64,000 bases of DNA from Strigamia acuminata (taxonomy: Eukaryota): positions 4,650,001-4,714,000 of the forward strand of contig OX442314.1 in NCBI GenBank assembly GCA_949358305.1. Reading direction: 5' to 3'. Position 1 is the stretch's first letter. The number at the start of each line of letters is the position of its first letter. The position numbers were made by a program, and so were the translations under genes. The notes beneath the pieces are model-generated. The model was not told where the DNA came from. It saw nothing but the letters and a program-made list of their open reading frames with translations, and ran no database searches. Below are positions 30,513-53,652 of the stretch, in pieces.

Positions 30513-30953
30513 CGTCCTTCTCTGGAATCTCGGCTCTCAGTGCGTCGCGCATTTTCTCTGGAAAGTAGTGGATCAAGGTCTCTTGACTCGCCCAGAATCG
30601 CGAGCGGGCTCTGGACGCGGTGAGTCGTTCCACTCGTGTTCGCTTGGATCTTCATCCATTTCTTCCTCTTCGTTATCGGGCGATTGCTTCCAGTTTCTTC
30701 GCATTCTTGATTTATTTGTTGGTTGCGATCTTTGTCTGTTAAACACCTGTTGTTGTCGTAACGGATTGCGGAGTGCACAGTTTAAAAGGTAGTCGAGGTT
30801 AAGTATTTGATTGGTTTTCGTATAAGATGCGTATTTTGATTGTTGGAGTCTCCTTGTGATTGTTTTTGTCCCTAGGAGGTCGGGGTAATTACGTCATCTT
30901 TGTCTTTATCCTTTTGATTGGTTAAGCCAACCATTTTGGATCTTTCTGCTGCA

Positions 30954-33900: not shown

Positions 33901-35231
33901 CATTTGAATGGGGCTAATTCTCGAAGAATTGCTTCGATTGATGGCATCTGAACGGGGTCGATGACGGTAATGGCATTTAGTGGTCGATAGTCGATACATA
34001 ATCGAGGCTCCGATCCCGCACGCATGACGAGTACAATTCTCATCGCGTATTCCCCGAGGGCTTCGGATACTATTCCCTTATCTAACAAGTCTTGACAGAT
34101 GGTCTTGACGATTTCTCGTTTTTGGGGGTTCATTCCTTTAAATGGAACTCGTACCGGCTTATCCGTACATAGTTCTATTTCGTGTTTCACGTAGTTGGTT
34201 TTTCCAGGATCTTTTGTCAAAATTTTACGGTGTTTTTTGAGCATTTCCTCGAGCAATTTTGTCTGAGCTTCTCCTAAATTTGCGTCTACGGCCAAGTTGT
34301 GAGCCAGATTATCTTCCTGGAGCCGCGCGTTAAACGACTTAAAGTCGTAGTCTTGTACGAATTGTTTTAGGTTTCCACCTTTCCATTCGTTCTTCTCGTC
34401 GTCTGACTCTAGAAATTCTGTGGGAACTGTCATTAGTCGGGGGTCTTCGCGCTTATCGATGTAGTTCCAGGATCTCGTTATTGGATTCGGCTGGATCTGC
34501 ATAATGGCCATTATATCCATGCCTAAGAGTAGGACCGTATCGTAGGTGGGTAAAACGATAAAAGGATGGGTTATTACGCCACCCTCCCATATGACTTTAG
34601 TCGTCAAAACTCCTACTGGTCGTACTTCCCCCGCGGCGGTTTTTACGACTACGTTCTCGCTGATTCCTCGCAGTTTGTTGCGCTGCTTCTTGTCCAAAGA
34701 TTCGTATAAATCCGAAGAGATGAACGATCGGTCAGCTCCTGAATCCAACAGGCCGACGAACTTTTTGCCGTTGAAATTGATCGTTAACATCGCGAGTGAA
34801 TCCTTTCGTTCCCTGGACAAATTACAATGTAAAACGCGCTTCTTTCGAGGTGGAGCTTCCTCGTAAGCGTATGGCAGTTCCTTAAAACTTTCAGCTCTTA
34901 TTTCGCCGTCTGCGGTGTTAGTGGTTGGGCCACTATAATCGAACCTTTCTTTGGTGAAGTAGGCTGTGGAGAAATAAGTGATTTTTGTTTTTAGTTCTTT
35001 AATTTGTTTTTCTAACCAATTGGTGTCTTTCCATTTGGCTCTTAGTTCATCTTCCGAATCTGAATCGCCAATTTCTTTATTGCCTAATTCGATTTTTATT
35101 TTGTCTACTTCTTTAGTAATTATCTCATTAATTGCTCGGTTAATTATTTTGCTCGTGTCTTTATTAGGAGCTTGGTCTTCCGGGCATGCAGACAGATCTA
35201 TTTTTTCTCTGTCTGCTTTAACCAGTTTTTT
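30954..35231 (-). CDS. Gypsy C pol (PR-RT-RH-INT), expressed by -1 frameshift
   Basis: LLDSGA, YLDD, HTDAS, HHCC, DDE, GPY motifs; pol frame is open from the A_AAA_AAC site at 35225-35231. Confidence 0.93.
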   Translation of the reverse strand, partial: KKLVKADREKIDLSACPEDQAPNKDTSKIINRAINEIITKEVDKIKIELGNKEIGDSDSEDELRAKWKDTNWLEKQIKELKTKITYFSTAYFTKERFDYSGPTTNTADGEIRAESFKELPYAYEEAPPRKKRVLHCNLSRERKDSLAMLTINFNGKKFVGLLDSGADRSFISSDLYESLDKKQRNKLRGISENVVVKTAAGEVRPVGVLTTKVIWEGGVITHPFIVLPTYDTVLLLGMDIMAIMQIQPNPITRSWNYIDKREDPRLMTVPTEFLESDDEKNEWKGGNLKQFVQDYDFKSFNARLQEDNLAHNLAVDANLGEAQTKLLEEMLKKHRKILTKDPGKTNYVKHEIELCTDKPVRVPFKGMNPQKREIVKTICQDLLDKGIVSEALGEYAMRIVLVMRAGSEPRLCIDYRPLNAITVIDPVQMPSIEAILRELAPFKWVTTMDLSKGYWQVEFRDEDKEKTAFWSPMGRLIFNVMPFGLVNAPATFQRLIEKVLGDALHKYAWAYLDDIIIVSQTFDEHIKHVDEVISRLAKAGLHVHPGKSQFCRKELAFLGYRVGTNGLSIDPKKVRAITDFPAPTDVKGVQRSLGMVNFFGRLLPHLAEVAAPITDLLKTVQKINPKEDPPKDREIKFDWTEKCEAAFDKIKQMLIDTETIPLPDLNREFILHTDASKIGLGAALMQKHIVNDIEQEVPTIFISRKIQAAEKNYSATELECLAIVWAVRKFRPYLEFTKFTVQTDHQALRWFMGLKEPSGRMARWQLELMAYDLEIKYKPGKYNTVADALSRAPAPGPDEPDDDGDDDSRIAYCPTPIRKWEFKKQNELPRETLESADDKYIGYWTRAYQSAKDARPSYNLSIGPRITDKFVRAFISHVSKGTNCVPPTREELIEAQKTDTFCKRFYDYLTDETFPSDVYDEEHREEFKIKVSAYLIDDGLLLKYHPNFRDDLTESGSSIKVVIPKKVRMQILWMVHGHPLAGHAGVARTLYRASQLYYWPKMRRDIVRFIRHCPCCQACKPRNKAKYENLSLGPYTPFDCWSVDLMGPKITSSNSHKYILVIMDVATGWPEIYPMAHPTKQKIIQCLYEVALHFGFPRKLISDNGPQFASRLYKDFCEQFDIQPSYTSTYNPRANPVERLNRDIKYALAIFTDVHSKWDEFLKEIAFSIRTTISRGRGFSPAYLNFARELRVPWDPRIPEGIRQIDPKNPHIYVGQLEQAISATYKHMMSHIFDMRERMKKSEKDTHFCNFKINDLVWKDTHILSSADKGIHAGLADKRDGPYVITKAHGGNAFSLQRLADNVNFRSIHARELTPYLPEFPQEEWAEDQTQPSSSPRMQDTFVDEIVTPDPDEILSPTASDDAELIPAPDEDLGGEEAVVSKTPENEVEVNKTSKQRKSKIPTRQSTRKRNPNPFIKDGKITGRT

Positions 35232-36520
35232 GTCAGTTCTTCGAATTTAGCTGTTAGCTTTTCTAACAATACTTCGTTCTCGGCAGCTTTCTTCTCCTCC
35301 TTCCTCTTTTTTCGTTTCGGGCAATCTCTTCTCCAGTGTCCCATCTCGTTACAGTAGTTACAGGGTTTTGTAGTGGAGTGGTCTGCTTTCGAGAAGGGTC
35401 GTCTTGCGAATTCCTTCTTTTCGTAGGGTTTATCGCTTTTGGGATTATGATGCTCCGTTCTGTTTGCCGTCTTCATTCGAGGTCGGTAGCTTGGGGCTGT
35501 TTCTTTCCCCATATTCGCGTGGAGAATCTCCTCTTCTTGTTGGCTCTCGCTCGTATCTCCCCCTGAGTTTTGCTCGGGGTCGTCTTCTTCGCTTTCCTTC
35601 TCGTCTTCGAAATCATTCACTTCAGATTTGGTACTAGCTCGATAAGCTTTCGGGGCTGGTATCGGGTTAGAAGTCGACTTGTCATTTGATTTTTTCGGTG
35701 GGGCTGCTTCGATGTTTCCGTTCAAGAAGGTTCGTGACTGGATTAGTCGGCCTGCGTCGTTATTTTTGGCGTGTATGCGCTGTATACGAAGTTGGGCCAA
35801 TGCCTTCTCTTCCGGGGTTAGAGAATCGGTATATCGATCATCTACTTCTTCGTGGCGTTTATTGACAAATTTCAACAACTGCTCGAAGCTATCCGTTGTT
35901 GGCGCGTTCATGTCTCGAAGCACCTTTTTCGACACGTCGTTCAGTCCCTTGTCGAAGATTAGTCTTTGGGCGTAGGCGTCCAGTGGAGTATAGAGTTCGT
36001 TAAAGAGACTTTTAGCGCGTAAGCAATAGGCTCGTAACTCCTCTCCGGGAGCTTGCTGCATGAGACTGACTCGTTGTCTGATCTCTTTTTGGGTCTCGCC
36101 GTATTGCTCGTTAAAGGCAACTACGAATTGTTCCCAATATTTTAAGTTCGCCTCCACGTACCACTCCCGCGCCTCTCCCACCAGCATTTCTGGCAGTCCC
36201 TTGGCTACCATTTCGTCCGGCTCGGCTCCAAGCCGCGAGATGGTGAGTGCCACCTCATTTAGGAACTTGTTTCCGGCCCTCCATGTGCCGTCGAATCTTA
36301 GTAGACGCAACTGAGACCATTTGATGTTGCGGTCTTTAGTATCCAGTGCCCATCGGTCGGCTAAATACTTCCTGAGCAGGCTTTCATTCCGTTCGTCTCG
36401 TTCGTCCAAGTCTTGGTTTCGGCCGGTCCGTGAATCGGCACGCATGTGTTCTTCTAACATTCGTAATCGCTCTTCCAGTATGGGGTCGGATTGGCTCTGA
36501 CTCCCATGACTCGGTGACAT
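35198..36520 (-). CDS. Gypsy C gag (capsid-like region and CCHC knuckle)
   Basis: LVGEAREWY...WEQFVVAFNEQY retrotransposon gag signature; CNYCNEMGHWRRDC. Confidence 0.88.
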   Translation of the reverse strand: MSPSHGSQSQSDPILEERLRMLEEHMRADSRTGRNQDLDERDERNESLLRKYLADRWALDTKDRNIKWSQLRLLRFDGTWRAGNKFLNEVALTISRLGAEPDEMVAKGLPEMLVGEAREWYVEANLKYWEQFVVAFNEQYGETQKEIRQRVSLMQQAPGEELRAYCLRAKSLFNELYTPLDAYAQRLIFDKGLNDVSKKVLRDMNAPTTDSFEQLLKFVNKRHEEVDDRYTDSLTPEEKALAQLRIQRIHAKNNDAGRLIQSRTFLNGNIEAAPPKKSNDKSTSNPIPAPKAYRASTKSEVNDFEDEKESEEDDPEQNSGGDTSESQQEEEILHANMGKETAPSYRPRMKTANRTEHHNPKSDKPYEKKEFARRPFSKADHSTTKPCNYCNEMGHWRRDCPKRKKRKEEKKAAENEVLLEKLTAKFEELTKNWLKQTEKK

Positions 36521-36609
36521 GTTTCCGTTTTGAGGAAGGAATTGGTTATTTTGCGAAGAATTCTGGCGCTGAGGAGAATTCTGGTTAGTTAAAGTTGGGG
36601 AAGTCGTGG

Positions 36610-37698
36610 TCAGCTGTGTTCCGGGGGGGGGAAGATTCCATTTACGGCTGTTCCGCTCAGGATCCCGTTATTTTGTTTTATTAATACGGTTGATTTTCTC
36701 CCTCCGTACAGTTGCGAATTAACTTTCGCGGCTTCCTTATTGGCGTCGTTAGCGGTCTTGTTCTTGGCTTTTGCGGCTTCGTTAGCTGCGTCGACGTTAG
36801 CTTTAACTGTTCGTATGTCCTCGAGGCTTGGCATTGCCAATCTATCTCGTCCTTGTTGATTTCTGATTTGATTTTGTTGATTAATCAATCGTATCATTTC
36901 GGAATTCGGGTCGTTCGGCGTTTGGCTGGTGTGGCCAGCTTTAGCCGCGAAAGATTGCGCGAATGCCCATGACTGTCTTCCTCGATTGTTCCGATTATCT
37001 TGCTGAAAAGCTTCCAAAAATTCATTCTGGATCTCGACTGGCTCGTCCACGATACTGGCCCACCCCTGGACGTTGATTCCTCTTGAGGTCATCGAATCGG
37101 CCTCGCTTTCGTTATCCGCGTCGGAACCGGTTTGGGTCGAATCGTACGAGTCGGTTGTTTGGCTACCGGTCTTTTGGCGTTTGACGCCCCTTCTCCCCCG
37201 TCTGGCAGCTCGTTTTTCCGCTCGTTCCCTGGTTAGACGAAGTATTATCTCCATCTGGGCTAGTGGATCTCCATTTTCGTCGAATGGTATTCCCTCTAAT
37301 CGAGCGATTGTATAAGCTTCCATACATTGATTGATTTGAGATCGCGTCGAATTATATCCGTGTTGAATGGTTACTCGATTGTGTTGAGCTCCGTCGTCTT
37401 GGTCAAACAGACTAAACCCGTCTTGACTTTTGTCGGATTCGTTATCGTTTATCGGGGGGTTAGGCTGTACGTTCTTCGGCGTTTTTTCAATCGGTGTTTT
37501 GCCGACGGACGTTTTCTCGACGTGGCTCGGCGTCTTGGTAACTCGATTCTTCTCTACGGGTTCCGGTGGTGTCGTATTTAACTTCGGGCTGGCTAACGCT
37601 TCGGCTGCCGCCTTGGCTTTTTCCATGGCGGCTTTTCGGGCGCTTGCGGTTGGAGGTTTTCGGTTCTTATTGCTTTTCGTCATTTCGATGGTTTGCAA
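36610..37698 (-). CDS. Gypsy C ORF0, probable N-terminal gag extension
   Basis: 362-aa low-complexity ORF after PBS; joins the gag frame by a -1 shift at the C9 run (36623-36631). Confidence 0.65.
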   Translation of the reverse strand: MQTIEMTKSNKNRKPPTASARKAAMEKAKAAAEALASPKLNTTPPEPVEKNRVTKTPSHVEKTSVGKTPIEKTPKNVQPNPPINDNESDKSQDGFSLFDQDDGAQHNRVTIQHGYNSTRSQINQCMEAYTIARLEGIPFDENGDPLAQMEIILRLTRERAEKRAARRGRRGVKRQKTGSQTTDSYDSTQTGSDADNESEADSMTSRGINVQGWASIVDEPVEIQNEFLEAFQQDNRNNRGRQSWAFAQSFAAKAGHTSQTPNDPNSEMIRLINQQNQIRNQQGRDRLAMPSLEDIRTVKANVDAANEAAKAKNKTANDANKEAAKVNSQLYGGRKSTVLIKQNNGILSGTAVNGIFPPPEHS

Positions 37699-37749
37699 AG
37701 TTCAAACCGTAAGATATGTTTATTTTAAATAGTTTGAATGTTCAAAACT

Positions 37750-37767
37750 ATCCCGGACAGGCCCCCA
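37750..37767 (-). promoter_or_regulatory. Gypsy C primer binding site (tRNA-Pro)
   Basis: TGGGGGCCTGTCCGGGAT vs canonical TGGGGGCTCGTCCGGGAT. Confidence 0.8.
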
Positions 37768-38566
37768 CGTGTCGTAACCTTGATTCCGGTAAATAAACTT
37801 ACTACAATATCTTACAATAAAACCTTTTATTTCACACTTCAATTATTACAAGAATGATACTTAAATGTTGTTGGTCTCGGATCCTTGTCGGTCGGATACG
37901 ATTGTTGCTGCACGGCAGTCTTACACGTGGCTTCTGTTGTCTAGGGTAATGGCGTCTGGCGAAACACGTGTTCGCAAACGCTTCGCTTCGGTAGATATTA
38001 CAATCGTAGATTTGCTACGATAAATATCTTTGGCTTGTTGTTATAGATGACTTGGGCAACGGGCATCGATCCTCTATCAATCCGTGGAGTTCGGCCTGAA
38101 AGGTGAGGTGTTGATGCTATGTTGCGGCTGGATCTATAAGTGGGGTTTCCGGTCAAAACACGGGTTTAAATGACCCCGGGAGACCGGAAATGACGTATTC
38201 GCATAAATTCGGAGAATTATGCAAATTTATGACGTCGTTACGTCAATCCCGCAGAAACGATGAAACTAGTAAAGCTAGTTTTCCCGTAATAATCTGATAG
38301 TCGATTTATTAGAAATACTAAAACACTATTTATTAGATCATAAATAATTAAAACACTTTTGTGACCTCGTGGTCACCACAAATTGTACATGATAACTGAC
38401 AGTTATCTGAATAAATTAATACAGAGTACATAATAAGTTGGGAATGAAGTTACAAGTGCCGTGAGATTTTAATTGTGCTTACAAGATATAGTATTTCTAA
38501 GTTCAACAATAAATGAAGTAAACTACTTATGTCATAAACTAACAACCAATGTGGAGTCTGCAAAAC

Positions 38567-39027
38567 CATAGTGTAAGAAGGGATAGTGGTCTCACTCCGT
38601 CAGTTCTCTGATTCGCCACGGTGGCGCTGCTTTACACAGACAGACTACTACAGCATAGAAATGCATGCTGAACTAGGTCAAAACCACTGATTTTGATTGT
38701 TTTAAGCATCAGAAATAAAAATAATTTAAAAAATAATTTAAAAATAAAAAAATAAAAATAATAAAATGATAAAAATAAAAAAATAATTAAAAAAAAATTT
38801 TTTTAAATTAATTTTATTCATCTTTTTTACCAAATTAATATTTGGTAATCTACAATATGTGTGTGATAATTATTTTTATTTCTGATGCTTAAAACAATCA
38901 AAATGAGTGGTTTTGACCTAGTTCAGCATGCATTTCTATGCTGTAGTAGTCTGTCTGTGTAAAGCAGCGCCACCGTGGCGAATCAGAGAACTGACGGAGT
39001 GAGACCACTATCCCTTCTTACACTATG
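38567..39027. mobile_element. Foldback MITE, P/Galileo-like
   Basis: About 160-bp near-perfect TIRs starting CATAG; 7-bp TSD GCAAAAC; AT-rich spacer. Confidence 0.82.
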
Positions 39028-40183
39028 GCAAAACCGTCATCGTTCAGCTCTCCAATGACCAATCCCAAAGCATGTAACAATCCGCATGTGATAACAGATA
39101 GGTTTTATTTTGCTGGTGCTGCCATCTGTTAGGATTCATGTTTGAAACAATCATAACTAATGAGTGTTTCAAACATGTTGCATTCAAAGTAATTCCACAT
39201 AATGGTATTATTGACTTTGAGTTGGTAAATTCTAAATTTCTCCCTAACCTAGGGAGAAACAACGTGAGCACCCTGAAGATTGGTTTACGTAATTTTCAGG
39301 AGGTCACACACAGTAAGAAAGATGATAATAAAAGAGGATCTGCAAGAGTGCAATAAAGGGAGTAAAACTTCACTGTAAAACACTGCAGAAGTGGCTTAAC
39401 CATTAACTCTAGATTCTTTAAATAAAATGCAGGCGTTTTGTTGTTAAAACTTGTGACGATTGACTTGGCGAGATACAAATTGCTTAACATTTAACGTAGG
39501 AACTCGTGTGAAAGTGTAAAAGTACGGAGGCTTGTGATTTCTCAAATCATATAACAGTTTATTGCGAATGGAAGACTTATATAAAACCTATGCCTACAAC
39601 TGGCTAAATAACTTATGTTAAATATACAATGGGTTGGCAAAAGCCCTGAAATAATATCACTTGCGGTTTTCAGTCGTGTAATAAGAATGTGTATCTTTCT
39701 TATTACGGTGACGTAAAAGATGTCGTCTTAGTATGGTTCGGGCTTTCAAATGGTCCTGGATCGGTTCTAAAATGGTGTGTAATGGTTAGGCTTGGGTGTG
39801 TTATATCCGAGAGATGCGGTTGACTTTGGCACAATCATCACACGTGTAATTATTGTATTGTTAATAATTACACAGCGCGATCATAAGAATGACGAAACAA
39901 TCGGAATAAATATTCATGTAAATTCCATTGAATTAAACATGATATTGTGTTCGCGAAACTGGATAAATAACTATAAAATAAAGAAAATAATTAAAATAGC
40001 GCCGAGCTATTTTTGCCCCGAGTGCAATCAACATTTAAGTCAGACTTAAATGTTCCATCAACCCAACAACGAAATGAATCGAAGTATTTCGCAGGAAAGG
40101 TTATCCATTGCCGGGAAATTACTCCACTCGGTTCTGGCTGGCGGGAGAGTAACCGGGAAATTACTCCGCGTCGATTACTCTGA

Positions 40184-40490
40184 TAATGCGTCTGTGAAAT
40201 ATAAATACTCCACTCTAGATTCTACATTACCAATGCGTCTGTGAATTTTACTCCACTCTAGATTCTGCATTCTACAACGGAATGTTGGCATGAAGCTGGA
40301 GGGAGTGCGTCTGTGGGTTGTACCCCACTCTAGATACTACACTTAAATGTGTCTGTGAATTACTCACTCTAGTTACGACATTTCTACAACGAAATGTTGG
40401 CATGAAGAGGCGGGAGTGTGTCTGTGAGTCTTCTACCCACTCTAGATACTTACACTAAATACAAAGTATTTCTACAACGGATTGTCGGAA
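40184..40490 (-). repeat. Array of five related hairpin-forming units in the Gypsy D LTR (second copy 52539-52845)
   Basis: Five copies of CTAGAGTG...CACAGAC interspersed with three C(A/G)ACA...CGTTGTAGAA units. Confidence 0.85.
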
Positions 40491-41694
40491 CGCAGAGAAG
40501 TATAGTATGTGCTCAAGTAATATCAGTATCAAACAAAAACAGAACAAGAGCGAGCTATATCCGTTTTGCAGGGGGATATATACTCGGTGAGGAGAATAGC
40601 TGTTCAGTGATCCAATGGGATCACTGGGCAGCCAAATCCATCCAATCCTAGATCACAGGAAGTGGATACTCAGGACATAGTCTTCTACTAGGTCCACCAC
40701 AGGAACTGGATACGCAGGACACACTTTGGATTAAGTCCCTTTGACTATAATCCGAAAGGAGTCCAACTCAGTGGGTGATGAAGGGTGACTTCACCAGGTG
40801 TAAAGTTTGCACATAATTCAATAGAATTATGTGACAAATAAATCAACTAATATTTAAACATCCAAAAGTATTTAAAAGTGTCTAAAGTTGCAGTGGAATA
40901 AAATATAAATAGTAATTTATATTTTATTCACTCAAAAATTGTCGAATTTGAAATTACCGCTAAAACGTATCAGCGCCATCTATTGGTGAAATAATCGTCC
41001 TAAACTAACAAAGTGTATGACAGTGTAACCGTCACAAGTCCCCCTTAAATATATGTTAATACCAGTATTAACATACTATTTATCCCGAATATCTTGAGGA
41101 TCAAGACCACACTGTCATCTATGGAACTGGAGCTGTAATCCTTGATAAGTAAAAACCTTTATTTTATATCTTAATAGTATAAATAAAGAGTATTTCTTAA
41201 TCAAATGCTTCAAAAAATATTTATTAGGGTTATAAAACTTCCAATTATCAATAATAACTTCCATCTCTCTTTACAGGTGGACTTACAACTGCATCAAGAA
41301 AAGGTGATAACTTAAACTTACATCAAACTCTTGTACCAAACAAATGATTAATAAAATTTAACAATTATTTTCACAAAACTTAACTTCTCACTGGAAATAT
41401 AATGATTTGCAAAATAACACTTTACACGTTAAAATTCAAGTATTAAAATTAGTATTTTTATAAACAAACTCACATTGACTCGTAATCAAATTTTAACGAA
41501 ATTGTTAATTTAAATATTAAAGATCTTTGAATTATTCACAAAAAACGGCATAAAATACACCTGAACCTGACTCAATCTTTGTTTCATCTCGGGTTGGGAA
41601 TGAAGATGGAAGAATTGAACTCGCTACCTCTGGTCTTGCCCTTAAAAGGGGAAATGTTGGGAAAGTAGCGGATCCCGACATCGTTGACGCTTTT

Positions 41695-43362
41695 TTAGTC
41701 CAACTCTTCATCCTCAATGAATCCTTCCATGGACGTAACAACTTCCGAGGTGGCTGCGGGTGGACAGTTAAGTTGAATAGTTACCATTTCCGGTACTACG
41801 TCCGGTTCAACGTCATGGTTCAGTGGGTCCAGGAGCATTCTGTGTTGTTCCTCGGTGAATACTTCCAGGGGATCAGGCCCTCCTAACGGAATGGTGTTAG
41901 CGCTGGTTGGCTCGGAAAAAACCAAGTGATGGTCGGGTAAGCCAGAGTGCCATCCCTCACGAATCAACGGGTGTGCTGCTGCTGAGACCTGCTGCAAAAT
42001 CTTACACCAAATAAAAGAGCGAGTTTGAAAAGATTCCGGCCGGGATGGATGAAAAATCCATTGGATCACGGCTAGTGGCACGCTTAAATCTGGAATCTGG
42101 TCGTTCGAAATTGACACGCTAATACGCTTAGCTGCTTCCAATAAAATTGGGAAATAATGTTCCACTTCCGCCTTAGTTTGTTCCGTGAGCGACATGCTTG
42201 GTCTCGGCATATATGGGTGGACCAGTAAAATAACCGGTTCAGCAGCGTCGTTTACTTCGGGGAGCGGAATGGTCGCTACAATCATGTTGTTAGCCGATGT
42301 TCCCTCTGGAGAAGCGGCGGCTTGCGGACCAGAATCGGATGCAACCGGCGGAGAATCAGACGCAGTAACTGACGTTGGTTCGTTCGTTGGGAGGTTTTCC
42401 GCCGAGACAACTGGAGTTCCCTCAATCGCAGGGGTGGGAGTATCCGGCTCGCGTTGTGGCTCCGTAAATCCTCCTCGTGGAGTCGAGGTGCTGGACATTT
42501 GCGCCGGGTCTACATAAATAGCTTGCTCCGGGCCCTGGTGGATGAGGCCACATTCGCGACACATCGCCCAATTTCGTGCTGTCGGCGTACTTAGCCCTTT
42601 GACGATGAATGGAAGAATTTCTTCGTTCCACATACTGGAAATTGCGACACGCTTACCACCGTGACAGTTCACGCAGACTACGGCGTGAATGCCGGACAAT
42701 AATGAGGACAACCACCCACATCCTGCGCACAATGGGCAGAACATCAACTTCGATTTAGGCATGATATTGGTTCCCAAGGCGGCAGCTTCCATATCGCGAA
42801 ACACGTGTTCTCGCCGTTGCTTACGATAACTCGGTAAGTTGAGCTCCGATAATGAGCGAGTTTGCGATGTTGGGCGGGTCAACGCTTCGGATGAAGATGC
42901 CAACGTGGACTTGGTGGGTCCCTTGGTTTTGCCTGTCTTGCCTCGACTAGCGGTATCGCAAGGATTTCGTGGTCGGGCAAACTGTCTGCTGGTAGTCTGA
43001 GGTGGAGCTTCTTCATAAGATTCTTCTTCTTGTGAGAAGTCGTCTTGGCGCCGTCTCCTTGAAGCAGAACGGGAGTATTGTGACGAGTCGTCAGAAAAAT
43101 CCCAATTCGGAGTCTCGCGGGGTGCATCATAGGTGACAACACGCTGACTAGCTGGACGGCCTCTGGAAGGACGCGAGTCGGTCGGGCTAACACCCATGGC
43201 GGTCCTAATTCGTGGTGGTACGAGATCCGGATTATCTCGGGCCCAGTTGGCGACGAGCTCGGGGTCAGAGGAGGGATTAACAAAGCGATAATCCGTCTCT
43301 TCCGACTCTTCTGGATCCCAATGCACGTATTGTCGCTTGCTAGCGCGACCTCGGCGACTCAT
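41695..43362 (-). CDS. Gypsy D accessory ORF3, 555 aa, Arg/Ser-rich N-terminus and Cys-rich putative zinc-binding region
   Basis: Intact ATG-started sense ORF after pol; CPLCAGCG...CVNCHGG...CRECGLIH; acidic C-terminus; T-rich tract plus AG just before the ATG. Confidence 0.8.
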   Translation of the reverse strand: MSRRGRASKRQYVHWDPEESEETDYRFVNPSSDPELVANWARDNPDLVPPRIRTAMGVSPTDSRPSRGRPASQRVVTYDAPRETPNWDFSDDSSQYSRSASRRRRQDDFSQEEESYEEAPPQTTSRQFARPRNPCDTASRGKTGKTKGPTKSTLASSSEALTRPTSQTRSLSELNLPSYRKQRREHVFRDMEAAALGTNIMPKSKLMFCPLCAGCGWLSSLLSGIHAVVCVNCHGGKRVAISSMWNEEILPFIVKGLSTPTARNWAMCRECGLIHQGPEQAIYVDPAQMSSTSTPRGGFTEPQREPDTPTPAIEGTPVVSAENLPTNEPTSVTASDSPPVASDSGPQAAASPEGTSANNMIVATIPLPEVNDAAEPVILLVHPYMPRPSMSLTEQTKAEVEHYFPILLEAAKRISVSISNDQIPDLSVPLAVIQWIFHPSRPESFQTRSFIWCKILQQVSAAAHPLIREGWHSGLPDHHLVFSEPTSANTIPLGGPDPLEVFTEEQHRMLLDPLNHDVEPDVVPEMVTIQLNCPPAATSEVVTSMEGFIEDEELD

Positions 43363-44654
43363 TGCGTCTTCAAAAAAAAATAAATTTTATTTGAGAACAT
43401 GAATCAAACCGTCGGTAATTAATTTAATTTCAAATTAAATTAATTGTCGACCAACAACTGGATTAATTTCATAATTAATTCTTAAGTTCCTTTTGTTAGC
43501 GTGTTTCCTTCATTTGTCGAATAATTATTAAAATTAATAATTATTATTGACTCGGTAGATAATTTCATCTTATCTTTTAAAAACAATATCGTTGACAAGA
43601 TATTCAAATTAGTGTTTATTAAATAAAATAAACCTAATTTTTGCATCTAAACGACATAATAACTAAAAAACCTGTCAAAATATTAAAAAATATTCTTGCA
43701 AGTATTTTTAGTACCTGACAATAGTCACTTTACATGATTTTAACTGTACGAATAACTCTATAATTCGTCCGAGTAAATAATCTATCACCGACATCTGGTG
43801 GCGTTTGTTAGTATCATACACGTGACTTGTTGACACATGTATACTCACCAATTTCAGAAAGGAACTTAAGCGACATTTTATTTTCATAAAATAAACACTT
43901 ACGAACTAGGTGGAGTCCTAGAAGGGTATATTTGGCTAGTTTAACGTCTAGCTTCACGTATTTGCGAGGGCTGCTCGGTTCCGGCGATGTCGGCCGATAA
44001 AAACGTTGTGCGGCGCGTGCGAATTCTAGGCCCGCCGTAATTAGCACTTTATGAAATAAACCATTATTAACTGTCAAAATATTCAAAGGAAATTTTGACA
44101 CAATAAATATCGGAAATATTTTTACCGGAGAATTGCAACGTGATCACGTGGTGAGATTTTTCTTTCGAGAAAATTCGACGAGTGAGTGGAATCCGGCAAT
44201 TTTTCCAAGTTAACTGATATTTGAACACAAATTCAGTTAAAGTTTATGAAAAGTCGTTTAAGATAAAACATAGTTTAACTCACTAGAACTCGGGAAAATC
44301 ACGTAGTTTTCGTGGAGAGTTGAGAGTTGTCCAGGGTTGTGTCCGTGTATGAAACTTAACAACAAGTGTCAACTACTCTCTAACGAGGGGTTAAGGGGAG
44401 TTTCGAGGAGTAATTTGATTGGCTTATAATTACTCATCTCGAAGTTTCTATTAACCCAAAGGGGGAAACATAGTTTCAAGTAAATGTTTACACGTAGATT
44501 AATTTAAATACAATCGGCCGTGTAAAAATAACTCAAACATTTGTTAAATTTTATCTACATTGATGAAATGTTTTTATTAATAAAATTTAATAATCCTTCG
44601 TGAATATGATTGGAAATATTTATTTAAAATAAAATATTTTCAATATATTGTGTC

Positions 44655-47600
44655 CTAACCCAACTTGACTTGTTTTAAACAATTTATGAGTTGTACAAAA
44701 TCGGTCACGTATTTTGTGTTCGGCTTGGGTCTACGTTTAGACTGTCGAACGAGAGATGGAAATCTTTTCCTCTTTTTAGATGGATTTTGAGGAGTTTCGT
44801 CCTCTTTAGAAGAAATCTGAGAAGTTTCCTCCTCTTTCTCTTCAACTAAATCCTCTGTTTCCATGGACACAGGTTCATTTATTAATTCTGGAGAATTAAT
44901 AACCTGACCTGCCATCCAATCTGGAGTCGGGTGTGACTCGTTGGTACCGATTTTCTGATCTAATGTCCATTCCTCAATCGGGTAACTTGGGATATAAGGC
45001 ATTAAATCCTGTATGTTGATCGCTTTTGCTTTTGAATTGTCGGAGAGCTTCCGTAGCGTGTAGGAACCTCCGCCAAGAACAGCCGTAATCTCCCAAGGTC
45101 CATCACGTTTCTCAGCGAATCCTGCCGAAATCCCTTTATCTTTATTCGATAAAATATGTGTGGCTTTCCACACGAGATCTCCTTTGGCAAATTGACAAAT
45201 ATAATATTTGTCTTTATGTAGTCGATCATGCTTTTCGTAATTCGATTGAATTTTCCGATGCATTTCGCTGTGTGCACGTCTAATTACGTCTAAAATGCTG
45301 TAGACATAAGCTTCGGGATTCTCTTTGTCGAATTTGATGGCGTGTTTAGTAATACGCGGGTCAAATGGCAAAGGAACGATTCTTCCCGTATTAAGAATCA
45401 TCGGAGAACAATTTGTTGCCTCGGACTTAGCGGTGCGCATCGCAAAGGCAAAAGAATTTAAATATTTTGGCCAGTGGGAGTGAATGTCCGAGTATAAAGC
45501 TAACATCATTTTTAAAGTCCTGTTAGCCCGCTCTGTAATATTAGCGGCAGCGTGATATGGGCTAATGTGAGCAATATCTACGTGATTTTTTCGACAAAAA
45601 TCATTAAATATTGTCGACACGAATTGTTTGCCGTTGTCGGAGATTATCTTTTTTGGATATCCCCAACGGTGGAAAACTTCGCTCATTTTATTAACAATGC
45701 ATTCACTTGATGCGGTCGCTAGTGGGAAGACTTCAATCCATTTTGTACAATTATCAATGATTACTAAAATCCATTTTAATTGTGAACGACCGGCTGGTTT
45801 TGGTCCCATCAGGTCAATGCTTATTGTCTCCCACGGGTTGGTCATGTTGTGGGGTGTATAGCTTGCCCGATGTTTTTGGTGTGACTAGGTTTGTATTGCT
45901 GGCAATGAGTGCAACTGCGAACGTAGTTTCGAGTGTCTTTGCTCATTCTAGGCCAGAAATACATCTTCTTTGCTCTATCTAGGGTTTTACTCATGCCAGC
46001 GTGTCCTGTAAGTGGATGGCCATGGCATGCGAATAATGCACGTCTCACAAGAGAGCGTGGAATTACCGCCTTAAACCCGTTGCCGGAGTCGTTTAACTCT
46101 TCCTCATCGGTCGGAGCAAAATAAATTAGCACAACACCTTTATTTTCTTCCGGTTCGTCGAGAGTGTAGCCACGAATCGCATTTAACCAATGTTTATCCG
46201 TGATACGATTTTTTAATTTTTCGTCTCCTTTTAGGTAAACAAGGATTTTACTACATGCTGGATCTTTAAGTTGCGCTTCGATAATTTCGTCTCTAGTCGG
46301 CGGGGCTATTTTGAGGATATCTGTTAGCGCAGTGTGTACATTTTCGTGATTACAATTGTGGACATCTATATGTCTGCAATTTTCTCTCGTGCATCCTTCT
46401 TCCTCCCCCTTTTCTCCAGAATCATGAAATCTAACTGGATTATATGATTCTGAGAAAAAATCTAAACTAAGGCCAACATTTGTAAGAAAATGTTTGCGCT
46501 TAGTTTCCGTCACTTGTAAAGATGCACACCTGTTTCCATTCCAAGTTGGATAGAAATGGGTGATTTCCTCTGGCTCGATATAATCATAATCCGGAGTGTC
46601 TAGTGCAGACAGTGGAGCGCGTGATAATGCGTCCGCTACTTGGTTCATTAAAAATAATTTTAAACGCGCCACATTGTATCTTGACGGCCCAACGACCAAA
46701 CCTTCCCGATGGTTCCGGCGTACTCATCAACCAGCTAAGGGCCTTAGCATCGGACTCGAGAGTGAAAGTCGTGTATTCAATATATGGGCGAAATCTTTCG
46801 ATTGCCCATACAACGGCCAAACACTCCAATTCCGGCGTAGAATACCTTACTTCGGCCCCGTGTAACACTCGACTGGCGTACGCGACTGCTTTCGGGACCA
46901 TTATTAATTTCTGTTTCTTTTCACAGAATAATTCTACGTCCTGACAGAGTACTGCACCTAAGCCTGAATGAGAAGCATCTGTCAAAATGACAAAAGGCTT
47001 ATTCATATCTGGCATGTGGAGAAGGGCTTGGTCCTTGTCACACAAAATATCTTTGATAGTTTCGAATGCAGTTGTTTGTGGATCATCCCACACAAACTTT
47101 GCTTGATCATGCATAATATTGGTCAATGGACGAGCAATATTTGCGATGTTGGGAATGAATTTTCGGAAAAAATTCGCAAGTCCTACAAATCTTTGAATGT
47201 CTTTAGAACAAGTCGGTTTGGGAAAATTCCTTACAGCCGAGACTTTGTCAGGGTCTGGAAGAAGAGATCCCTCCGAAATTAAATGGCCTAAAAATCGTAA
47301 TGATGTTCGACCAAATTTTGACTTGTCTTTATTGATAGTTAGATTTGCGGCATCTAACTTCTCAAGTACGTCTTTAATATGTAATAAATGATTTTCCCAT
47401 GTGTCGGAAAAAATAATTATATCGTCTAAGTAGACTAGAGCATATTTATATAAAGAGTCACCCAATACGGTAGTCATGAGGTGTTGAAAAGAGCTGGGTG
47501 CATTACAAAGACCAAATGGCAATCTTTTGAATTGAAATTTGCCTTTTGGGGTGTAAAAAGCAGTTTTGCTCTTATCCTCCTCCTCCATTTCCATTTGATG

Positions 47601-48929
47601 ATAACCTTTAGTTAAATCAATGGACGTAAAGTACTTGGCCTGATTAGTATGATGAATTAACAGGTCAATACTTGGCATTTGAATTGCATCAACTTCTGTG
47701 ATTGCATTCAACCAGCGGTAGTCGATACATAATCGATACTTCCCGCCGGGTTTAGCCACTATGACGGGGTGACTTATATAGGGGCCAGTGGCAGGTTCGA
47801 TTAACCCATCGGCCTCCAATTCCTCGACCAATTCCGTCATAATGGCCTTCTTGGCCGGGTTGTACATTCTATACGGCTGGTGTTTCCAAGTAGCACCAGG
47901 TTTAAACTTGATGCTGTGCTTGGCAACCTTCGTGCAGCCCAATTGATCTCGAAATACGTTTTTTAATTTCAAAAGAACGTTTATGAGTAACTGTTTTTCT
48001 TCTGCCGAGCTGTTGCAGCCTTCGACGAGTTTTTCTGCCCAGTCAGGTGAAGTGGGAGATCCTTCACCTTGGAGACCCAGAGTCCTAATGCTTGCTAAGC
48101 AACAGTTAAGTTCAGTGGTCTCGTATGGTGCTGTCCATCCGGGCATGTCATCACAGGTGAACACAGCCCGTCGGGGATTAGGGTTTATCCCCGTTCTACG
48201 CATAAAATTGTGACCCAAAATCAACCCACATACATTCTTGTGTAGAATTATGAAGGTCATAGGTGTAACTCTCCTTTTATCGGCCCATTTGACACAAAGA
48301 CAAACTTGACCGATAGGTCGGTGATCTATTCCGACTGCGCAGACACGCATTCCCCGAGGACATTCTTGTATGAATTCCACCGGAATTTCTGTGTTTGAAA
48401 GGAGTTGTACTCCAATAAAACATTGGGTGGCTCCAGAGTCCATTAGTGCGTTGTAATCCAAACCTCCAATTTGGACATTCATACGCGGATCATCTTTGCC
48501 ACCATTAATTAATTTGCTATTGCAAAGTTTGCCAAGAAATACTTTACGTTCTTTTTTGTTCCATTTTTCAAGTTTAAGAAGTTTTCTTAACTTGAAAATC
48601 TTAGGTACAAGTGGTTTTTTCGGTGCATTCCAACTTCCACTGAAAATACTCAAATTTTCTAGTTGGTCTGTCATGATTTTTAAATTTTCATCGACACCAC
48701 CAGTGGAACTACTCGCTTTCCGACAGACAGGTACTGCTTCGTAAGAAATGACCAATGATGGTGGTTTATTCTTCGAATCGTCAACATAAGGCACTGTGAG
48801 ATGACTAGGCTTATGTCTTATTTTAATTTCTTTTTTATGTGAAAATAAATCATTGGACAATTCCGAGAGAGGAAACAACTCTTTAGGCGGGGGTTGGGCA
48901 ACTTGAACAACCCCCTGAATCAGTTTTTT
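44655..48929 (-). pseudogene. Gypsy D pol with two frameshifts
   Basis: LMDSGA, YLDD, LTDAS, HHCC, DDE, GPW motifs over three frames (breaks near 46650 and 45845); A_AAA_AAC at 48923-48929. Confidence 0.9.
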
Positions 48930-49975
48930 GTCTCGTCGGGGGTGACTGAATCAGTGGCTGCTGGTAAGTGCTTAATTAACAGGTCAACCATGTTTTTCTG
49001 GAAGTCAGTAAATTTGGAGTCTAAAGTTTCTGACGTAACCCAATTTTGTTTGGGTCGTTTAAACTCGGGGTTGGGAGCAGAGTGGTTAAATCTTTTATTT
49101 GAATTTAACGAGTCTGCTTTCCCTGCTAATTTTTTGGCAAGAGCGGGACATTCTCTTTTAAAATGTTCAGGCTCGTGACAGAAAAAGCATTTTCCAGTAG
49201 TCTTTTCATACTGGGCGGCAAATAATCGCTCCATTGAACCATCGTCAGTTGAGTCGTCATTTTCCGACTCGTCTTCATCTTCAACCTCATCTTGTGTTTG
49301 CGTTAAACGTAGTGAAGTTTTAGATGGAAAAATCTTAGATTTTTCGTGAATTTTTGGAGTAGGATGATTCTCTCGATTATCGTACTCCAATTTTGCTGCA
49401 AGTTGGGCAGAACTTTCAAACTTAGAGCGATTTGCTCCTACATATTGTAGAATGTCATCTACTGTAAAGTCACCATACATCCCTTGTGTACATAACGCCG
49501 TGAAACTTTCTTGGGTTAGATTGTCGAATAATTGCGCACGTCCAGTTTTATCACCTGGCGGCACTTCACCTTGTTCTTGCGTATAACGCAGAAGAAAACT
49601 GTAAAGTGACTCGTCGGCTCGTTGTTTTACATTAAGAAGTCGCCTTTCTCTTGTAAGTGGAACGAGATCGAAACAATCGAGGAAAGAGGCTTCGAAAGTT
49701 CGCCAACTATTAAAAGTATGACGTTGCTTATGGAACCAACGTTGTGCATGGCCTAATAGTCGTCCAGGTACAGCAGTGTGTACCATGTCGTCTAAAGGGA
49801 TGCCTTTCCCGAGTGCGACAGCTTTGACGATTTCAAGGAATCGTGCAACCTCTGTCTGTTTCCCGTCACAAATAGGAATCTCGATTCCTTTTCCAAAATT
49901 CTGACTGGAATTACTCGGGCTTCGGATTTGACCAACTAAACCCTGAATAATTTGTTTTACATTTTCGTCTGACAA
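48920..49975 (-). CDS. Gypsy D gag
   Basis: LLGHAQRWF...SWRTFEASFLDCF; CFFCHEPEHFKREC knuckle. Confidence 0.85.
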   Translation of the reverse strand: MSDENVKQIIQGLVGQIRSPSNSSQNFGKGIEIPICDGKQTEVARFLEIVKAVALGKGIPLDDMVHTAVPGRLLGHAQRWFHKQRHTFNSWRTFEASFLDCFDLVPLTRERRLLNVKQRADESLYSFLLRYTQEQGEVPPGDKTGRAQLFDNLTQESFTALCTQGMYGDFTVDDILQYVGANRSKFESSAQLAAKLEYDNRENHPTPKIHEKSKIFPSKTSLRLTQTQDEVEDEDESENDDSTDDGSMERLFAAQYEKTTGKCFFCHEPEHFKRECPALAKKLAGKADSLNSNKRFNHSAPNPEFKRPKQNWVTSETLDSKFTDFQKNMVDLLIKHLPAATDSVTPDETKN

Positions 49976-50949
49976 ATTAGAAGCAGCGTTCGAGTTGGGT
50001 GTAGACCGACTTTCTTGGTCTCTGGGTGGTGGATTTGGCTCTTCGCGAAAATTTTGGCGTCTATCAGGTGGAAATTATTGTTATAATTTCCCCCTCTACC
50101 AGCGTGAGATTCGTCACTACTCGAGTTAGGATCGGAGTCACGAGGATCACCAGGAGCTCCGGGAAATCGTTGATTTCTCGGCGGAGCTCGTCCACCTTGA
50201 GAGCGGGAATTTCTATAATTCCTAAAATCTCCATCAGATTGGGTGTGAGATTGAAAATTTTGATAATTTTCATTTCTCCCCCTTGGTTGGATCGACAGAT
50301 TAGTTCGAGGCTGTGGAACTCTGAAAGAATCATTCAAATTCCCAGTGGGAGCGGGTAAATTATTATTTACTGCCGTCGCACTTGGCAAATTTCGGGAAAT
50401 TGGCGCAGAAATATTTCCTTGTCCGGAATTTCCCATTCTTTCGGCTGAATTCGATCGCCAAGAACTAGCTGGTAGCTGAATCAAAGGTTGAACAGATAGT
50501 GAAGAATTTAACTGCCCATTGTCGTCACGAGCAACATTCATTCGCCATCCAGGTAATTGCTGGTAGCGATATGTGGCCGGTGAACGAGGGCCAGTTCGAT
50601 CTACAGAAACACTTCGTTCGTTGGTTACAACTACATCGGGAGTAATTACACGATTTCTCTCGTGATGATTATTCGCCGTGTATTGTTGAGCTTCACACAA
50701 AGAGGAAAACTGCGTCACCTCCAATTGGTAATGGCGACAGTAAACTTCTAAATCATGCGGGACTGATAGTGGATCTGTCCGAGAACTACTTGGGTTGGAA
50801 ACGTCTCTAGGAACATTTTCTTCCCCCTGGCTTTCTAGATCAGACTCCACAATTCCTCTTGGTGTTTCACACATACCACCACGTCGTCGTGCTCCACGAT
50901 TTCCTCGTGTTCCACGAACTCTTACAGGTCTACGGGCCATAATACTCAA
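49957..50949 (-). CDS. Gypsy D ORF0, probable N-terminal gag extension
   Basis: 330-aa Arg/Gly/Asn-rich ORF overlapping the gag frame, which is open from about 50074. Confidence 0.6.
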   Translation of the reverse strand: MSIMARRPVRVRGTRGNRGARRRGGMCETPRGIVESDLESQGEENVPRDVSNPSSSRTDPLSVPHDLEVYCRHYQLEVTQFSSLCEAQQYTANNHHERNRVITPDVVVTNERSVSVDRTGPRSPATYRYQQLPGWRMNVARDDNGQLNSSLSVQPLIQLPASSWRSNSAERMGNSGQGNISAPISRNLPSATAVNNNLPAPTGNLNDSFRVPQPRTNLSIQPRGRNENYQNFQSHTQSDGDFRNYRNSRSQGGRAPPRNQRFPGAPGDPRDSDPNSSSDESHAGRGGNYNNNFHLIDAKIFAKSQIHHPETKKVGLHPTRTLLLICQTKM

Positions 50950-51785: not shown

Positions 51786-51803
51786 ATCTCGGTGGAACCT
51801 CCA
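51786..51803 (-). promoter_or_regulatory. Gypsy D primer binding site (tRNA-Gln)
   Basis: TGGAGGTTCCACCGAGAT, 18-nt complement of the metazoan tRNA-Gln 3' end. Confidence 0.9.
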
Positions 51804-53652
51804 CGTGTGACGATTGACTTGGCGAGATACAAATTGCTTAACAATTAGAGCGAGAACTCGTGTGAAAGTGTAAAAGTACGGAGGCTTGTGATTTCTCAAA
51901 TCATGTAACAATTTATTACGAATGGAAGACTTATATAAAATCTATGCCTACAACTGGCTAAATAACTTCACGTTAAATATACAATGGGTTGGCAAAAGCC
52001 CTGAAATAATATCACTTGCGGTTTTCAGTCGTGTAATAAGAATGTGTATCTTTCTTATTACGGTGACGTAAAAGATGTCGTCTTAGTATGGTTCGGGCTT
52101 TCAAATGGTCCTGGATCGGTTCTAAAATGGTGTGTAATGGTTAGGCTTGGGTGTGGTATATCCGAGAGGTGCGGTTGACTTTGGCACAATCATCACACGT
52201 ATAATTATTATATTGTTAATAATTATACAGCGCGATCATAAGAATGATGAAACAATCGGAATAAATATTCATGTAAATTCTATTGAATTAAACATGATAT
52301 TGTGTTCGCGAAACTGGATAAATAACTATAAAAATAAAGGAATAATTAAAATAGCGCCGAGCTATTTTTGCCCCGAGTGCAATCAACATTTAAGTCAAAC
52401 TCAAATGTTCCGTCAAACCAACAACGAATTGAATCGAAGTATTTCGCAGGAAAGGTTATCCATTGCCGGGAAATTACTCCACTCGGTTCTGGCTGGCCGG
52501 AGAGTAACCGGGAAATTACTCCGCGTCGATTACTCTGATAATGCGTCTGTGAAATATAAATACTCCACTCTAGATTCTACATTACCAATGCGTCTGTGAA
52601 TTTTACTCCACTCTAGATTCTGCACTCTACAACGGAATGTTGGCATGAAGCTGGAGGGAGTGCGTCTGTGGGTTGTACCCCACTCTAGATACTACACTTA
52701 AATGTGTCTGTGAATTACTCACTCTAGTTACGACATTTCTACAACGGAATGTTGGCATGAAGAGGCGGGCAGTGTGTCTGTGAGTCTTCTACCCACTCTA
52801 GATACTTACACTAAATACAAAGTATTTCTACAACGGATTGTCGGAACGCAGAGAAGTATAATATGTGCTCAAGTAAATATCGGTATCAAACAAAACAAGA
52901 ACAAGAGCGAGCTATATCCGTTTTGCAGGGGGATATATACTCGGTGAGGAGAATAGCTGTTCAGTGATCCAATGGGATCACTGGGCAGTCAAATCCATCC
53001 AATCCCAGATCATAGGAAGTGGATACTCAGGACATAGTCTTCTACTAGGTCCACTACAGGAACTGGATACGCAGGACACAGTTTGGATTAAGTCCTTTTG
53101 ACTATAATCCAAAAGGAGTCCAACTCACAGTGGGTGATGAAGGGTGACTTCACCAGGTGTAAAGTTTGCACATAATTCAATAGAATTATGTGACAAATAA
53201 ATCAACTAGTATTTAAACATCCAAAAGTATTTAAAAGTGTCTAAAGTCGCAGTGGAATAAAAATATAAATAGTAATTTATATTTTATTCACTCAAAAATT
53301 GTCGAAATTTGAAATTACCGCTAAAACGTATCAGCGCCATCTATTGGTGAAATAATCGTCCTATACTAACAAAGTGTATGACAGTGTAACCGTCACACGG
53401 TTATGGTCTTGCCCACGATAACCTGGGGACTGTATGCGTCCCAAACCATGGTAACCAGTCCGCAGGCTGCCATGGCAAAGACCGTACCAGTCACAACGTC
53501 AACACGATGCCCACAAGGAATAGTCTAACCCCACCTCGCCTGGTTTAGTTAATGGTTAATGTAATCACGTAACATTATATCTGGCCGTAATATCACATAA
53601 CATCATCCTGCAACCAGCAACTCCTCCAGGCAGTGCATTGGTTATACAGTCA

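What the first reader, a model, noticed from the sequence alone, without database searches (positions are those of the whole stretch)
41695..43362. Non-env accessory protein with Arg/Ser-rich and CxxC zinc-finger regions in the env position of Gypsy D
Seen: 555-aa ORF that is intact although pol is frameshifted, with a basic RS-rich N-terminus, CPLCAGCG-x-CVNCHGGK (DnaJ-like CxxCxGxG pair) plus CRECGLIH at about 42540-42740, a Pro/Thr linker and an acidic tail; no signal peptide, furin-plus-fusion peptide or TM anchor. A T-tract and AG lie 5 nt before the ATG, suggesting a spliced subgenomic mRNA. Inference: nuclear or RNA-binding regulator (Tat/Rev/Rex-like, or an anti-silencing factor), making this a complex retrotransposon together with the LTR hairpin array.
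Basis: partly seen in the sequence, partly recalled or inferred. Interest (0 to 1): 0.75.

Follow-up and report, generated by a model that had tools for sequence, protein, structure and literature searches.

The report
Zinc-finger third gene in Gypsy retrotransposon
Where retroviruses keep their envelope gene, this jumping gene carries an unrelated cysteine-rich gene whose copies differ mostly by silent changes and whose core recurs in gene models of a centipede's related elements; it likely binds zinc and likely regulates the element's own RNA, which is untested.

Summary
The 555-aa ORF (41695-43362, minus strand) is real. It lies 1.29 kb behind pol in a 13.9-kb Ty3/Gypsy element and has no env hallmark. 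Among sibling copies in three public runs, 31 of the 39 listed differences in the ORF are silent (13 of 13 in the cysteine domain), pN/pS is about 0.1, and the four listed indels keep the frame. Its only database relatives are two Strigamia (centipede) gene models that join pol pieces of a sister Gypsy lineage to the same CxxC domain (33% identity); one of them also shares a second, C-terminal domain. It is therefore a selected, inherited accessory gene of an unnamed family. Each LTR holds five repeats that fold as hairpins on the sense strand. Best mechanism, inferred (about 0.38): a nuclear CERV/Rev/Rex-like regulator acting on the hairpins. Rivals: a DNA-binding activator or anti-silencer, or a protein adaptor. 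Non-env third ORFs are known, so this is a new variant of a known kind.

The parts
51806..53397 (-). 5' LTR, 1592 nt, TG...CA ends
   Evidence: (96.9% identical to the 3' LTR over 1598 columns, 37 mismatches, 12 gap openings)
52545..52800 (-). Five TAGAGTG-N(7-14)-CACAGAC repeats, each folding as a sense-strand hairpin (5' LTR copy)
51786..51803 (-). Primer-binding site (TGG... 18 nt) 2 nt after the 5' LTR; likeness to a tRNA-Gln 3' end is recalled, not tested
49957..50940 (-). N-terminal gag-side ORF (327 aa, no Pfam); overlaps the capsid frame, probably one gag broken near 50.07 kb (inferred)
48920..50074 (-). gag capsid plus CCHC frame; ends at an A-AAA-AAC heptamer (48923-48929) overlapping the pol frame, likely the normal programmed -1 shift
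44655..48950 (-). pol (PR, RT, RNase H, integrase in Ty3/Gypsy order) in three frames, broken near 46.65-46.72 kb and 45.88 kb
43363..44654 (-). 1.29-kb AT-rich spacer with at least 18 upstream ATGs; CpG observed/expected 1.64
43368..43384 (-). Candidate splice acceptor (T-tract, GAAG), 5 nt before the ATG; untested
41695..43362 (-). ORF3, 555 aa, non-env accessory gene
42823..43362 (-). ORF3 aa 1-180: low-complexity R/S/P/D/E region, basic patches at aa 3-10 and 102-105
42475..42822 (-). ORF3 aa 181-296: conserved cysteine domain (KxRRE helix, CxxCxxxGW, CxNCxGxK, WN, VKG, WAxCxxC); likely zinc-binding
   Evidence: score 184, 0 of 1000 shuffles, max 52
41929..42057 (-). ORF3 aa 436-478: second conserved, probably helical domain shared with P0004
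   Evidence: score 62, 0 of 2000 shuffles, max 61
41698..41892 (-). ORF3 aa 491-555: acidic tail
41037..41049 (-). Polypurine tract before the 3' LTR
39452..41036 (-). 3' LTR, 1585 nt; no target-site duplication with the other flank (AAACT versus CGGTT)
40190..40444 (-). Five-repeat hairpin array, 3' LTR copy

Best explanation
The ORF is a selected third gene of a Ty3/Gypsy lineage, not an envelope, and it likely encodes a zinc-binding nuclear regulator that acts on the element's own RNA, likely through the five-hairpin array in the LTR. Shown: the gene, its purifying selection, its cross-species core and the array. Inferred: because at least 18 ATGs lie between pol and this ATG, it needs its own mRNA, likely spliced into the acceptor at 43368. 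Splicing of a Gypsy transcript creates the problem of exporting and protecting the unspliced genomic RNA. The cysteine domain would fold around one or two zinc ions, the basic patches would bring it to the nucleus, several molecules would load on the repeated hairpins, and the C-terminal domain and acidic tail would recruit host export or elongation factors, as CERV does for Cer1. That it is a functional accessory gene: about 0.93. That it works by this RNA mechanism: about 0.38.
For: Selection: 31 of 39 listed differences silent (one keeps the stop codon), expected share 0.24-0.31, p 4e-10 or less, pN/pS 0.08-0.11; 13 of 13 silent in aa 181-296; the 4 listed indels in the ORF are 12, 12, 3 and 9 nt, the 3 in the flanks are 1 nt. 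Inheritance: the only 2 hits among 1.84 billion representatives are Strigamia maritima gene models whose pol parts are 39-66% identical to this pol against 21-36% to the neighbouring element's pol; all three CxxC pairs are invariant. Not env. RNA element: 5 repeats per LTR, 0 in 100 shuffles; sense strand folds at z -3.3, antisense at -1.4; 25 of 25 cells pair, including G-U wobbles, against 33-52% for slid controls; inner stems total 14 pairs on the sense strand and 3 on the antisense, 0 of 20000 shuffles; loop length varies from unit to unit, which suits an RNA hairpin better than a DNA site. Precedent: CERV of Cer1 is a Gypsy-encoded, spliced, Cys-loop protein required for genomic RNA export (PMC10309623).
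Against: No call shows expression, splicing, location or binding; nothing links the protein to the hairpins except that they share an element. Covariation in the hairpins is not significant (105 of 500 shuffles; 24 of 120 permutations), and the five units are homologous, so not independent. The N-terminus is not an RS domain and is not conserved. NES-like matches are weak and proline-broken. The CxxCxGx motifs resemble a DnaJ/anti-TRAP type of finger, which (recalled) usually binds proteins. Cys spacing differs from CERV's. The two Strigamia models are nearly identical over this part, so they are one independent lineage, and their pol-ORF3 link rests on gene predictions, not DNA seen here. Only 40 of 151 differences were listed (best supported first); one low-depth contig has a frame-breaking gap in the ORF. 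It is not known whether the array lies in U3, R or U5.
Confidence: 0.38

Rival explanations
1. ORF3 is a sequence-specific DNA-binding activator or anti-silencing factor (Tax/Tas- or VANC-like in action) that binds the repeated LTR motif as DNA and keeps the element's promoter active or unmethylated.
For: The flanks of the repeat (CTAGAGTG, CACAGAC) are invariant in 5 of 5 units; VANC targets often form tandem repeats (PMC5735166, abstract); Strigamia methylates its LTR elements (PMC6673714, passages); the protein has an acidic tail and a likely zinc domain.
Against: The variable part of each repeat keeps sense-strand pairing with G-U wobbles and changes in length, which a DNA site does not need. 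No likeness to any DNA-binding family.
Confidence: 0.25
2. ORF3 is a protein-binding adaptor or scaffold, unrelated to the hairpins: it blocks a host defence protein (piRNA or RNAi pathway, restriction factor) or helps particle assembly or cell-to-cell passage without a membrane anchor.
For: Mostly low-complexity protein with two small conserved domains; weak Pfam likeness to GRXCR C-terminal and anti-TRAP CxxCxG fingers (E 0.08 and 5, far below cut-off); the ORF3 region carries more variable places per kb than the whole element (67-71 against 34-58, different likeness thresholds), as an arms-race module might.
Against: No partner or fold identified; variation is mostly silent, not adaptive.
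Confidence: 0.27
3. ORF3 is a captured host exon or a passenger with no current role for the element.
For: GC 52% and GC3 50% against 41-42% and 33-39% in gag-pol suggest a different origin.
Against: Strong purifying selection and frame-keeping indels; the only relatives are in another species' Gypsy elements, none is a host gene.
Confidence: 0.05
4. ORF3 is a highly diverged envelope or fusogen.
For: It sits in the env position with a candidate acceptor.
Against: No signal peptide, transmembrane segment or fusion peptide; no Pfam env family; Cys in CxxC pairs rather than dispersed.
Confidence: 0.03

Closest known systems
CERV of C. elegans Cer1 (PMC10309623; abstract, passages and one Discussion section read)
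   Same: Ty3/Gypsy-encoded accessory protein of similar size (517 aa) from a spliced mRNA, small structured domains joined by flexible linkers, a Cys-rich candidate C4 zinc finger, no homology outside its lineage; the model for the favoured mechanism.
   Different: CERV's Cys are C193, C195, C200, C269 (CxC-x4-C...C), here three to four CxxC pairs; CERV shares sequence with gag, this ORF lies wholly behind pol; CERV function is shown, this one is not.
Non-env ORF3s of bdelloid LTR retrotransposons (PMC5408684; passages read)
   Same: Sense ORF between pol and the 3' LTR of animal LTR elements, family-specific, not env, typically expressed from spliced messages.
   Different: Those are GDSL esterases, DEDDy exonucleases, coiled-coil or transmembrane proteins; none is described as a zinc-finger regulator ('zinc' 0 occurrences).
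Additional ORFs of plant LTR retrotransposons (PMC7264820; first third read)
   Same: Conserved extra ORF between pol and 3' LTR with no homologue outside the elements and no known function.
   Different: Plant hosts; sense ones are env-like with transmembrane segments, the others are antisense.
Retroviral Rev/Rex/Rem and Tat/Tax with their LTR or env RNA elements (recalled; Rev also as described in PMC10309623)
   Same: Accessory gene in the 3' part plus a structured cis element in the same genome.
   Different: Much larger protein, no sequence likeness found, no defined arginine-rich motif or export signal, element is a Gypsy without env.
VANC anti-silencing proteins of VANDAL transposons (PMC5735166; abstract read)
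   Same: Element-encoded extra protein beside a tandem-repeat motif in non-coding sequence.
   Different: Plant DNA transposons, DNA targets; no sequence likeness found in Pfam.

Membership tests
Ty3/Gypsy LTR retrotransposon | LTRs with TG...CA ends, primer-binding site and polypurine tract | tested here: met
Ty3/Gypsy LTR retrotransposon | gag, then PR-RT-RNase H-integrase order | tested here: met
Ty3/Gypsy LTR retrotransposon | Target-site duplication (single insertion) | tested here: not met
   flanks AAACT and CGGTT differ; points to a recombined copy, does not change the superfamily
Ty3/Gypsy LTR retrotransposon | Placement in a named clade by RT phylogeny | not tested
   no reference RT set was fetched
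Envelope (env) gene | Signal peptide and C-terminal transmembrane anchor | tested here: not met
   hydropathy maximum 1.55 inside the Cys region, charged N-terminus (no dedicated predictor available)
Envelope (env) gene | Furin site followed by fusion peptide; match to an env family | tested here: not met
DnaJ CXXCXGXG zinc finger | Four CxxCxGxG repeats and Pfam match | tested here: not met
   one exact and one inexact repeat; not among Pfam families listed up to E 10
SR / RS-domain proteins | Run of alternating RS dipeptides beyond composition | tested here: not met
   9 observed, shuffle mean 7.5
CERV family | Sequence or fold homology (H, M, G domains; CxC-x4-C loop) | tested here: inconclusive
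   Cys spacing differs; no CERV-like hit; models too poor for fold comparison
Rev/Rex/CERV-like export regulators (function) | Made from a spliced mRNA | not testable with these tools
   no RNA holder listed; candidate acceptor only
Rev/Rex/CERV-like export regulators (function) | Structured cis element in the element's RNA | tested here: inconclusive
   sense-strand hairpin array exists; its transcription and role are unknown
Rev/Rex/CERV-like export regulators (function) | Nuclear protein that binds the RNA and is needed for export | not testable with these tools
   needs bench tests
LTR retrotransposons with a conserved additional 3' ORF | Sense ORF between pol and 3' LTR, kept across copies and under selection | tested here: met

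The most novel reading that the evidence does not exclude
An env-less arthropod Gypsy lineage has independently evolved a complex-retrovirus switch: a new zinc-finger protein, made from a spliced message, that reads a five-hairpin response element in its own LTR RNA to control export or transcription of the genomic RNA. It would be the second such system in an animal LTR retrotransposon after Cer1 and the first with a candidate response element in view.
Probability: 0.3. Interest if true: 0.8.

Novelty: new variant of a known kind. Interest (0 to 1): 0.56.

Why it matters
Accessory regulators were long seen as a mark of complex retroviruses; among animal Gypsy elements the searches here found one worked-out case (CERV). 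This element offers an unnamed, selected cysteine-domain family with a candidate cis element beside it, so the pair can be tested in simple reporter and binding assays. A second Gypsy in the same window has a different large non-env 3' ORF, which hints that such genes are common and overlooked in non-insect arthropods. If the function proves to be anti-silencing, it would be an animal counterpart of VANC in hosts that methylate their transposons.

Tried and rejected
Pfam: no family for the whole protein at E 0.1; Cys domain only weak generic zinc-ribbon matches, all below cut-off. PHROGs: weak CxxC matches, E 0.003-0.05, not taken as homology. Word-indexed protein searches: three, no hit; one search missed even the proteins it was built from, so these blanks are weak. 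PDB sequences: 0 hits up to E 10 for aa 178-296. ESM Atlas: no usable hit for the whole protein; the domain-only request did not complete. AlphaFold2 on 3-row alignments: mean pLDDT 29.6 (whole) and 36.2 (domain), unusable; Foldseek on the latter gave nothing at E 0.001 and is uninformative. Related loci: none in metagenome contigs or viral contigs. No genome is held for the window. No RNA holder listed, no evidence either way on expression. Rfam: three chance-level matches. ORF3 of the neighbouring element is not alignable (198 of 300 shuffles as good). Rejected: RS domain; zf-CXXC reading of CPLCAGC (third Cys is Thr in both homologues); 'intact beside broken pol' as evidence; donor candidates (53128, 52809, 52722, 50925) are no more than chance would give. 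Literature searches found no description of this ORF; the eLife survey PMC13524379 has no mention of myriapod, centipede, Strigamia or zinc. Repbase, Dfam and subscription papers were not searchable, and no supplement was opened; the CERV alignments and repeat libraries of arthropod genome papers could bear on novelty.

Full report
Setting. The window is a transposon-rich eukaryotic region with at least five LTR elements. The element in question lies on the minus strand at 39452-53397. Its LTRs are 1585 and 1592 nt and 96.9% identical. It has a primer-binding site, a polypurine tract, gag with a CCHC knuckle and pol in PR-RT-RNase H-integrase order: a Ty3/Gypsy element. pol is broken near 46.65-46.72 kb and 45.88 kb, and gag is probably broken near 50.07 kb (inferred from overlapping frames). 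The gag-pol overlap at an A-AAA-AAC heptamer looks like the normal programmed shift (motif recalled). No genome is held. The host is likely a non-insect arthropod: the only relatives are from a centipede, and the window holds a Copia with an MBD domain, a type reported from centipede and spider (PMC6673714, passages).

The observation. The ORF, the three Cys motifs, the Pro/Thr linker, the acidic tail and the lack of env hallmarks are as described. Three supporting arguments fail. The N-terminal 180 residues have net charge +4 and no excess of RS dipeptides. An intact ORF beside a pol with two breaks has P about 0.45 by chance. The DnaJ likeness is one exact and one inexact motif without a Pfam match. 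The acceptor is present but is an AAG in an AT-rich spacer. It ranks 4th of the 14 best sites by pyrimidine count, but is the only one of these 14 with no ATG between it and the ORF start; at least 18 ATGs lie in the spacer, so the ORF cannot be reached by scanning from pol and needs splicing, an internal promoter or internal initiation (inference).

Selection. Three public runs of one organism (2 studies, one possibly the source) hold many variant copies. One search lists 40 of 151 differences, best supported first; 39 fall in the ORF. Of these, 31 are silent (one in the stop codon, which stays a stop), 8 change a residue, none makes a stop. The neutral share of silent changes is 0.24-0.31, so p is 4e-10 or less and pN/pS is 0.08-0.11; all 13 differences in aa 181-296 are silent. 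The four listed indels in the ORF are 12, 12, 3 and 9 nt; the three in the flanks are 1 nt. Contigs 13-16% diverged align without gaps (records 4 and 8). Against: one low-depth contig has a frame-breaking gap (41971-42035), and 111 differences were not shown. As a control, only 3 of the 9 gag-pol differences listed are silent, as expected for mutations private to a dead copy. So the 3' part of this copy differs from the majority by old, selected divergence while its 5' part differs by recent decay. With the missing target-site duplication and 7 listed differences in the 3' LTR against 2 in the 5' LTR, this suggests a recombinant of two subfamilies (inference).

Homologues. A phmmer scan of 1.84 billion representatives gave 2 hits (E 2.7e-11 and 1.3e-8): UniRef T1IMA5 and T1IH97 of Strigamia maritima. 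Both are gene models that join Gypsy pol pieces to a relative of this ORF. Their pol parts are 39-66% identical to this element's pol and 21-36% to the neighbouring element's, so they belong to a sister lineage. The Cys domain aligns at 33% over 118 aa (score 184, 0 of 1000 shuffles) with all three CxxC pairs and WN, VKG and WA invariant. Strigamia has a fourth CxxC (CIGC) that is missing here, where C215, H226 and H275 could stand in (inference), so one or two zinc sites are likely. A second block, aa 436-478, aligns with P0004 (score 62, 0 of 2000 shuffles, maximum 61: modest). The N-terminal region does not align. The two models are nearly identical over this part and count as one lineage. 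No family, solved structure or usable model was found.

The LTR array. Each LTR has five TAGAGTG-N-CACAGAC repeats; 10 matches in the window, 0 in 100 shuffles. The region folds better on the sense strand (z -3.3) than on the antisense (z -1.4). In all five units the 5-pair stem is complete (25 of 25 cells; slid controls 33-52%), with G-U, A-U and G-C variants at the inner two pairs; inner stems total 14 pairs on the sense strand and 3 on the antisense. Covariation is not significant (105 of 500; 24 of 120) and the units share ancestry. No Rfam family matches. TATA-like and AATAAA sites occur both before and after the array, so its place in the transcript is open.

Mechanism. Shown: a selected, inherited, non-env gene with two conserved domains; a sense-strand hairpin array in the same element. 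Inferred: own mRNA, zinc binding, nuclear action, and use of the array. The best precedent is CERV, a Cys-loop protein from a spliced Cer1 mRNA that is required for export of genomic RNA (PMC10309623; abstract, passages and section 15). I give this RNA-regulator reading 0.38, a protein adaptor unrelated to the array 0.27, a DNA-binding activator or VANC-like anti-silencer 0.25 (PMC5735166, abstract), a passenger 0.05 and env 0.03.

Comparison and novelty. Non-env third ORFs are known in rotifer (PMC5408684, passages) and plant elements (PMC7264820, first third); an env-less Drosophila group with cell-to-cell spread appeared in a search listing only (PMC11952523). The element is a member of 'LTR retrotransposons with a conserved additional 3' ORF'. 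The protein is not env, not an RS protein and not a DnaJ finger by the tests above; membership of the CERV family is unsupported, although it may work like CERV. Six literature searches found no description of this ORF; Repbase, Dfam, subscription papers and supplements were not seen. Earlier notes of this scan had nothing on this sequence or genome; two notes on other genomes report non-env Gypsy ORF3s of other kinds, which led me to the rotifer paper and suggests that such genes are not rare.

Verdict. A real, new accessory-protein family in a known kind of arrangement, with a testable candidate target and an unproven function: new variant of a known kind, interest 0.56.

Noticed in passing
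window 28239-30512 (minus), element 27551-38180: A second Gypsy (pol 34-37% identical to this element's pol, unbroken) also has a large non-env ORF behind pol: 757 aa, Arg-rich N-terminus, Pro-rich, one Cys, no Pfam, not alignable to the 555-aa ORF; it also has a 357-aa ORF before gag (36610-37683).
   Followed up: partly
window 5178-9482 (minus), LTRs near 4170 and 10622: Intact Copia polyprotein with a methyl-CpG-binding domain between integrase and RT (Pfam MBD, E 1.6e-9); fits the published CopiaMBD family (PMC6673714).
   Followed up: partly
window 39452-53397: No target-site duplication, 12 gap openings between the LTRs and a more diverged 3' part suggest that this copy is a recombinant of two subfamilies.
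   Followed up: partly
window 52468-52522 and 40113-40167 (minus): Two further GGAGTAATTTCCC repeats follow the five-hairpin array in each LTR and resemble its units; a GTAAGT donor-like hexamer sits at 52809, just before the first unit (chance-level).
   Followed up: partly
window 53342 and 40981 (minus): AGATGGCGC near the 5' end of each LTR resembles a CTCF-type insulator motif (likeness recalled; position).
   Followed up: no
window 43363-44654: The spacer before ORF3 has CpG observed/expected 1.64 and two CACGTG boxes (44150, 43824); it could hold an internal promoter.
   Followed up: no
window 16048-16857, 54015-54521, 55883-56434 (plus): Pieces of amiloride-sensitive sodium channel (DEG/ENaC) host genes flank the transposon cluster.
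   Followed up: no
window 25014-25774, 38566-39028, 61480-61818: Long, close inverted repeats (215, 161 and 91 nt arms), probably MITE or foldback elements.
   Followed up: no
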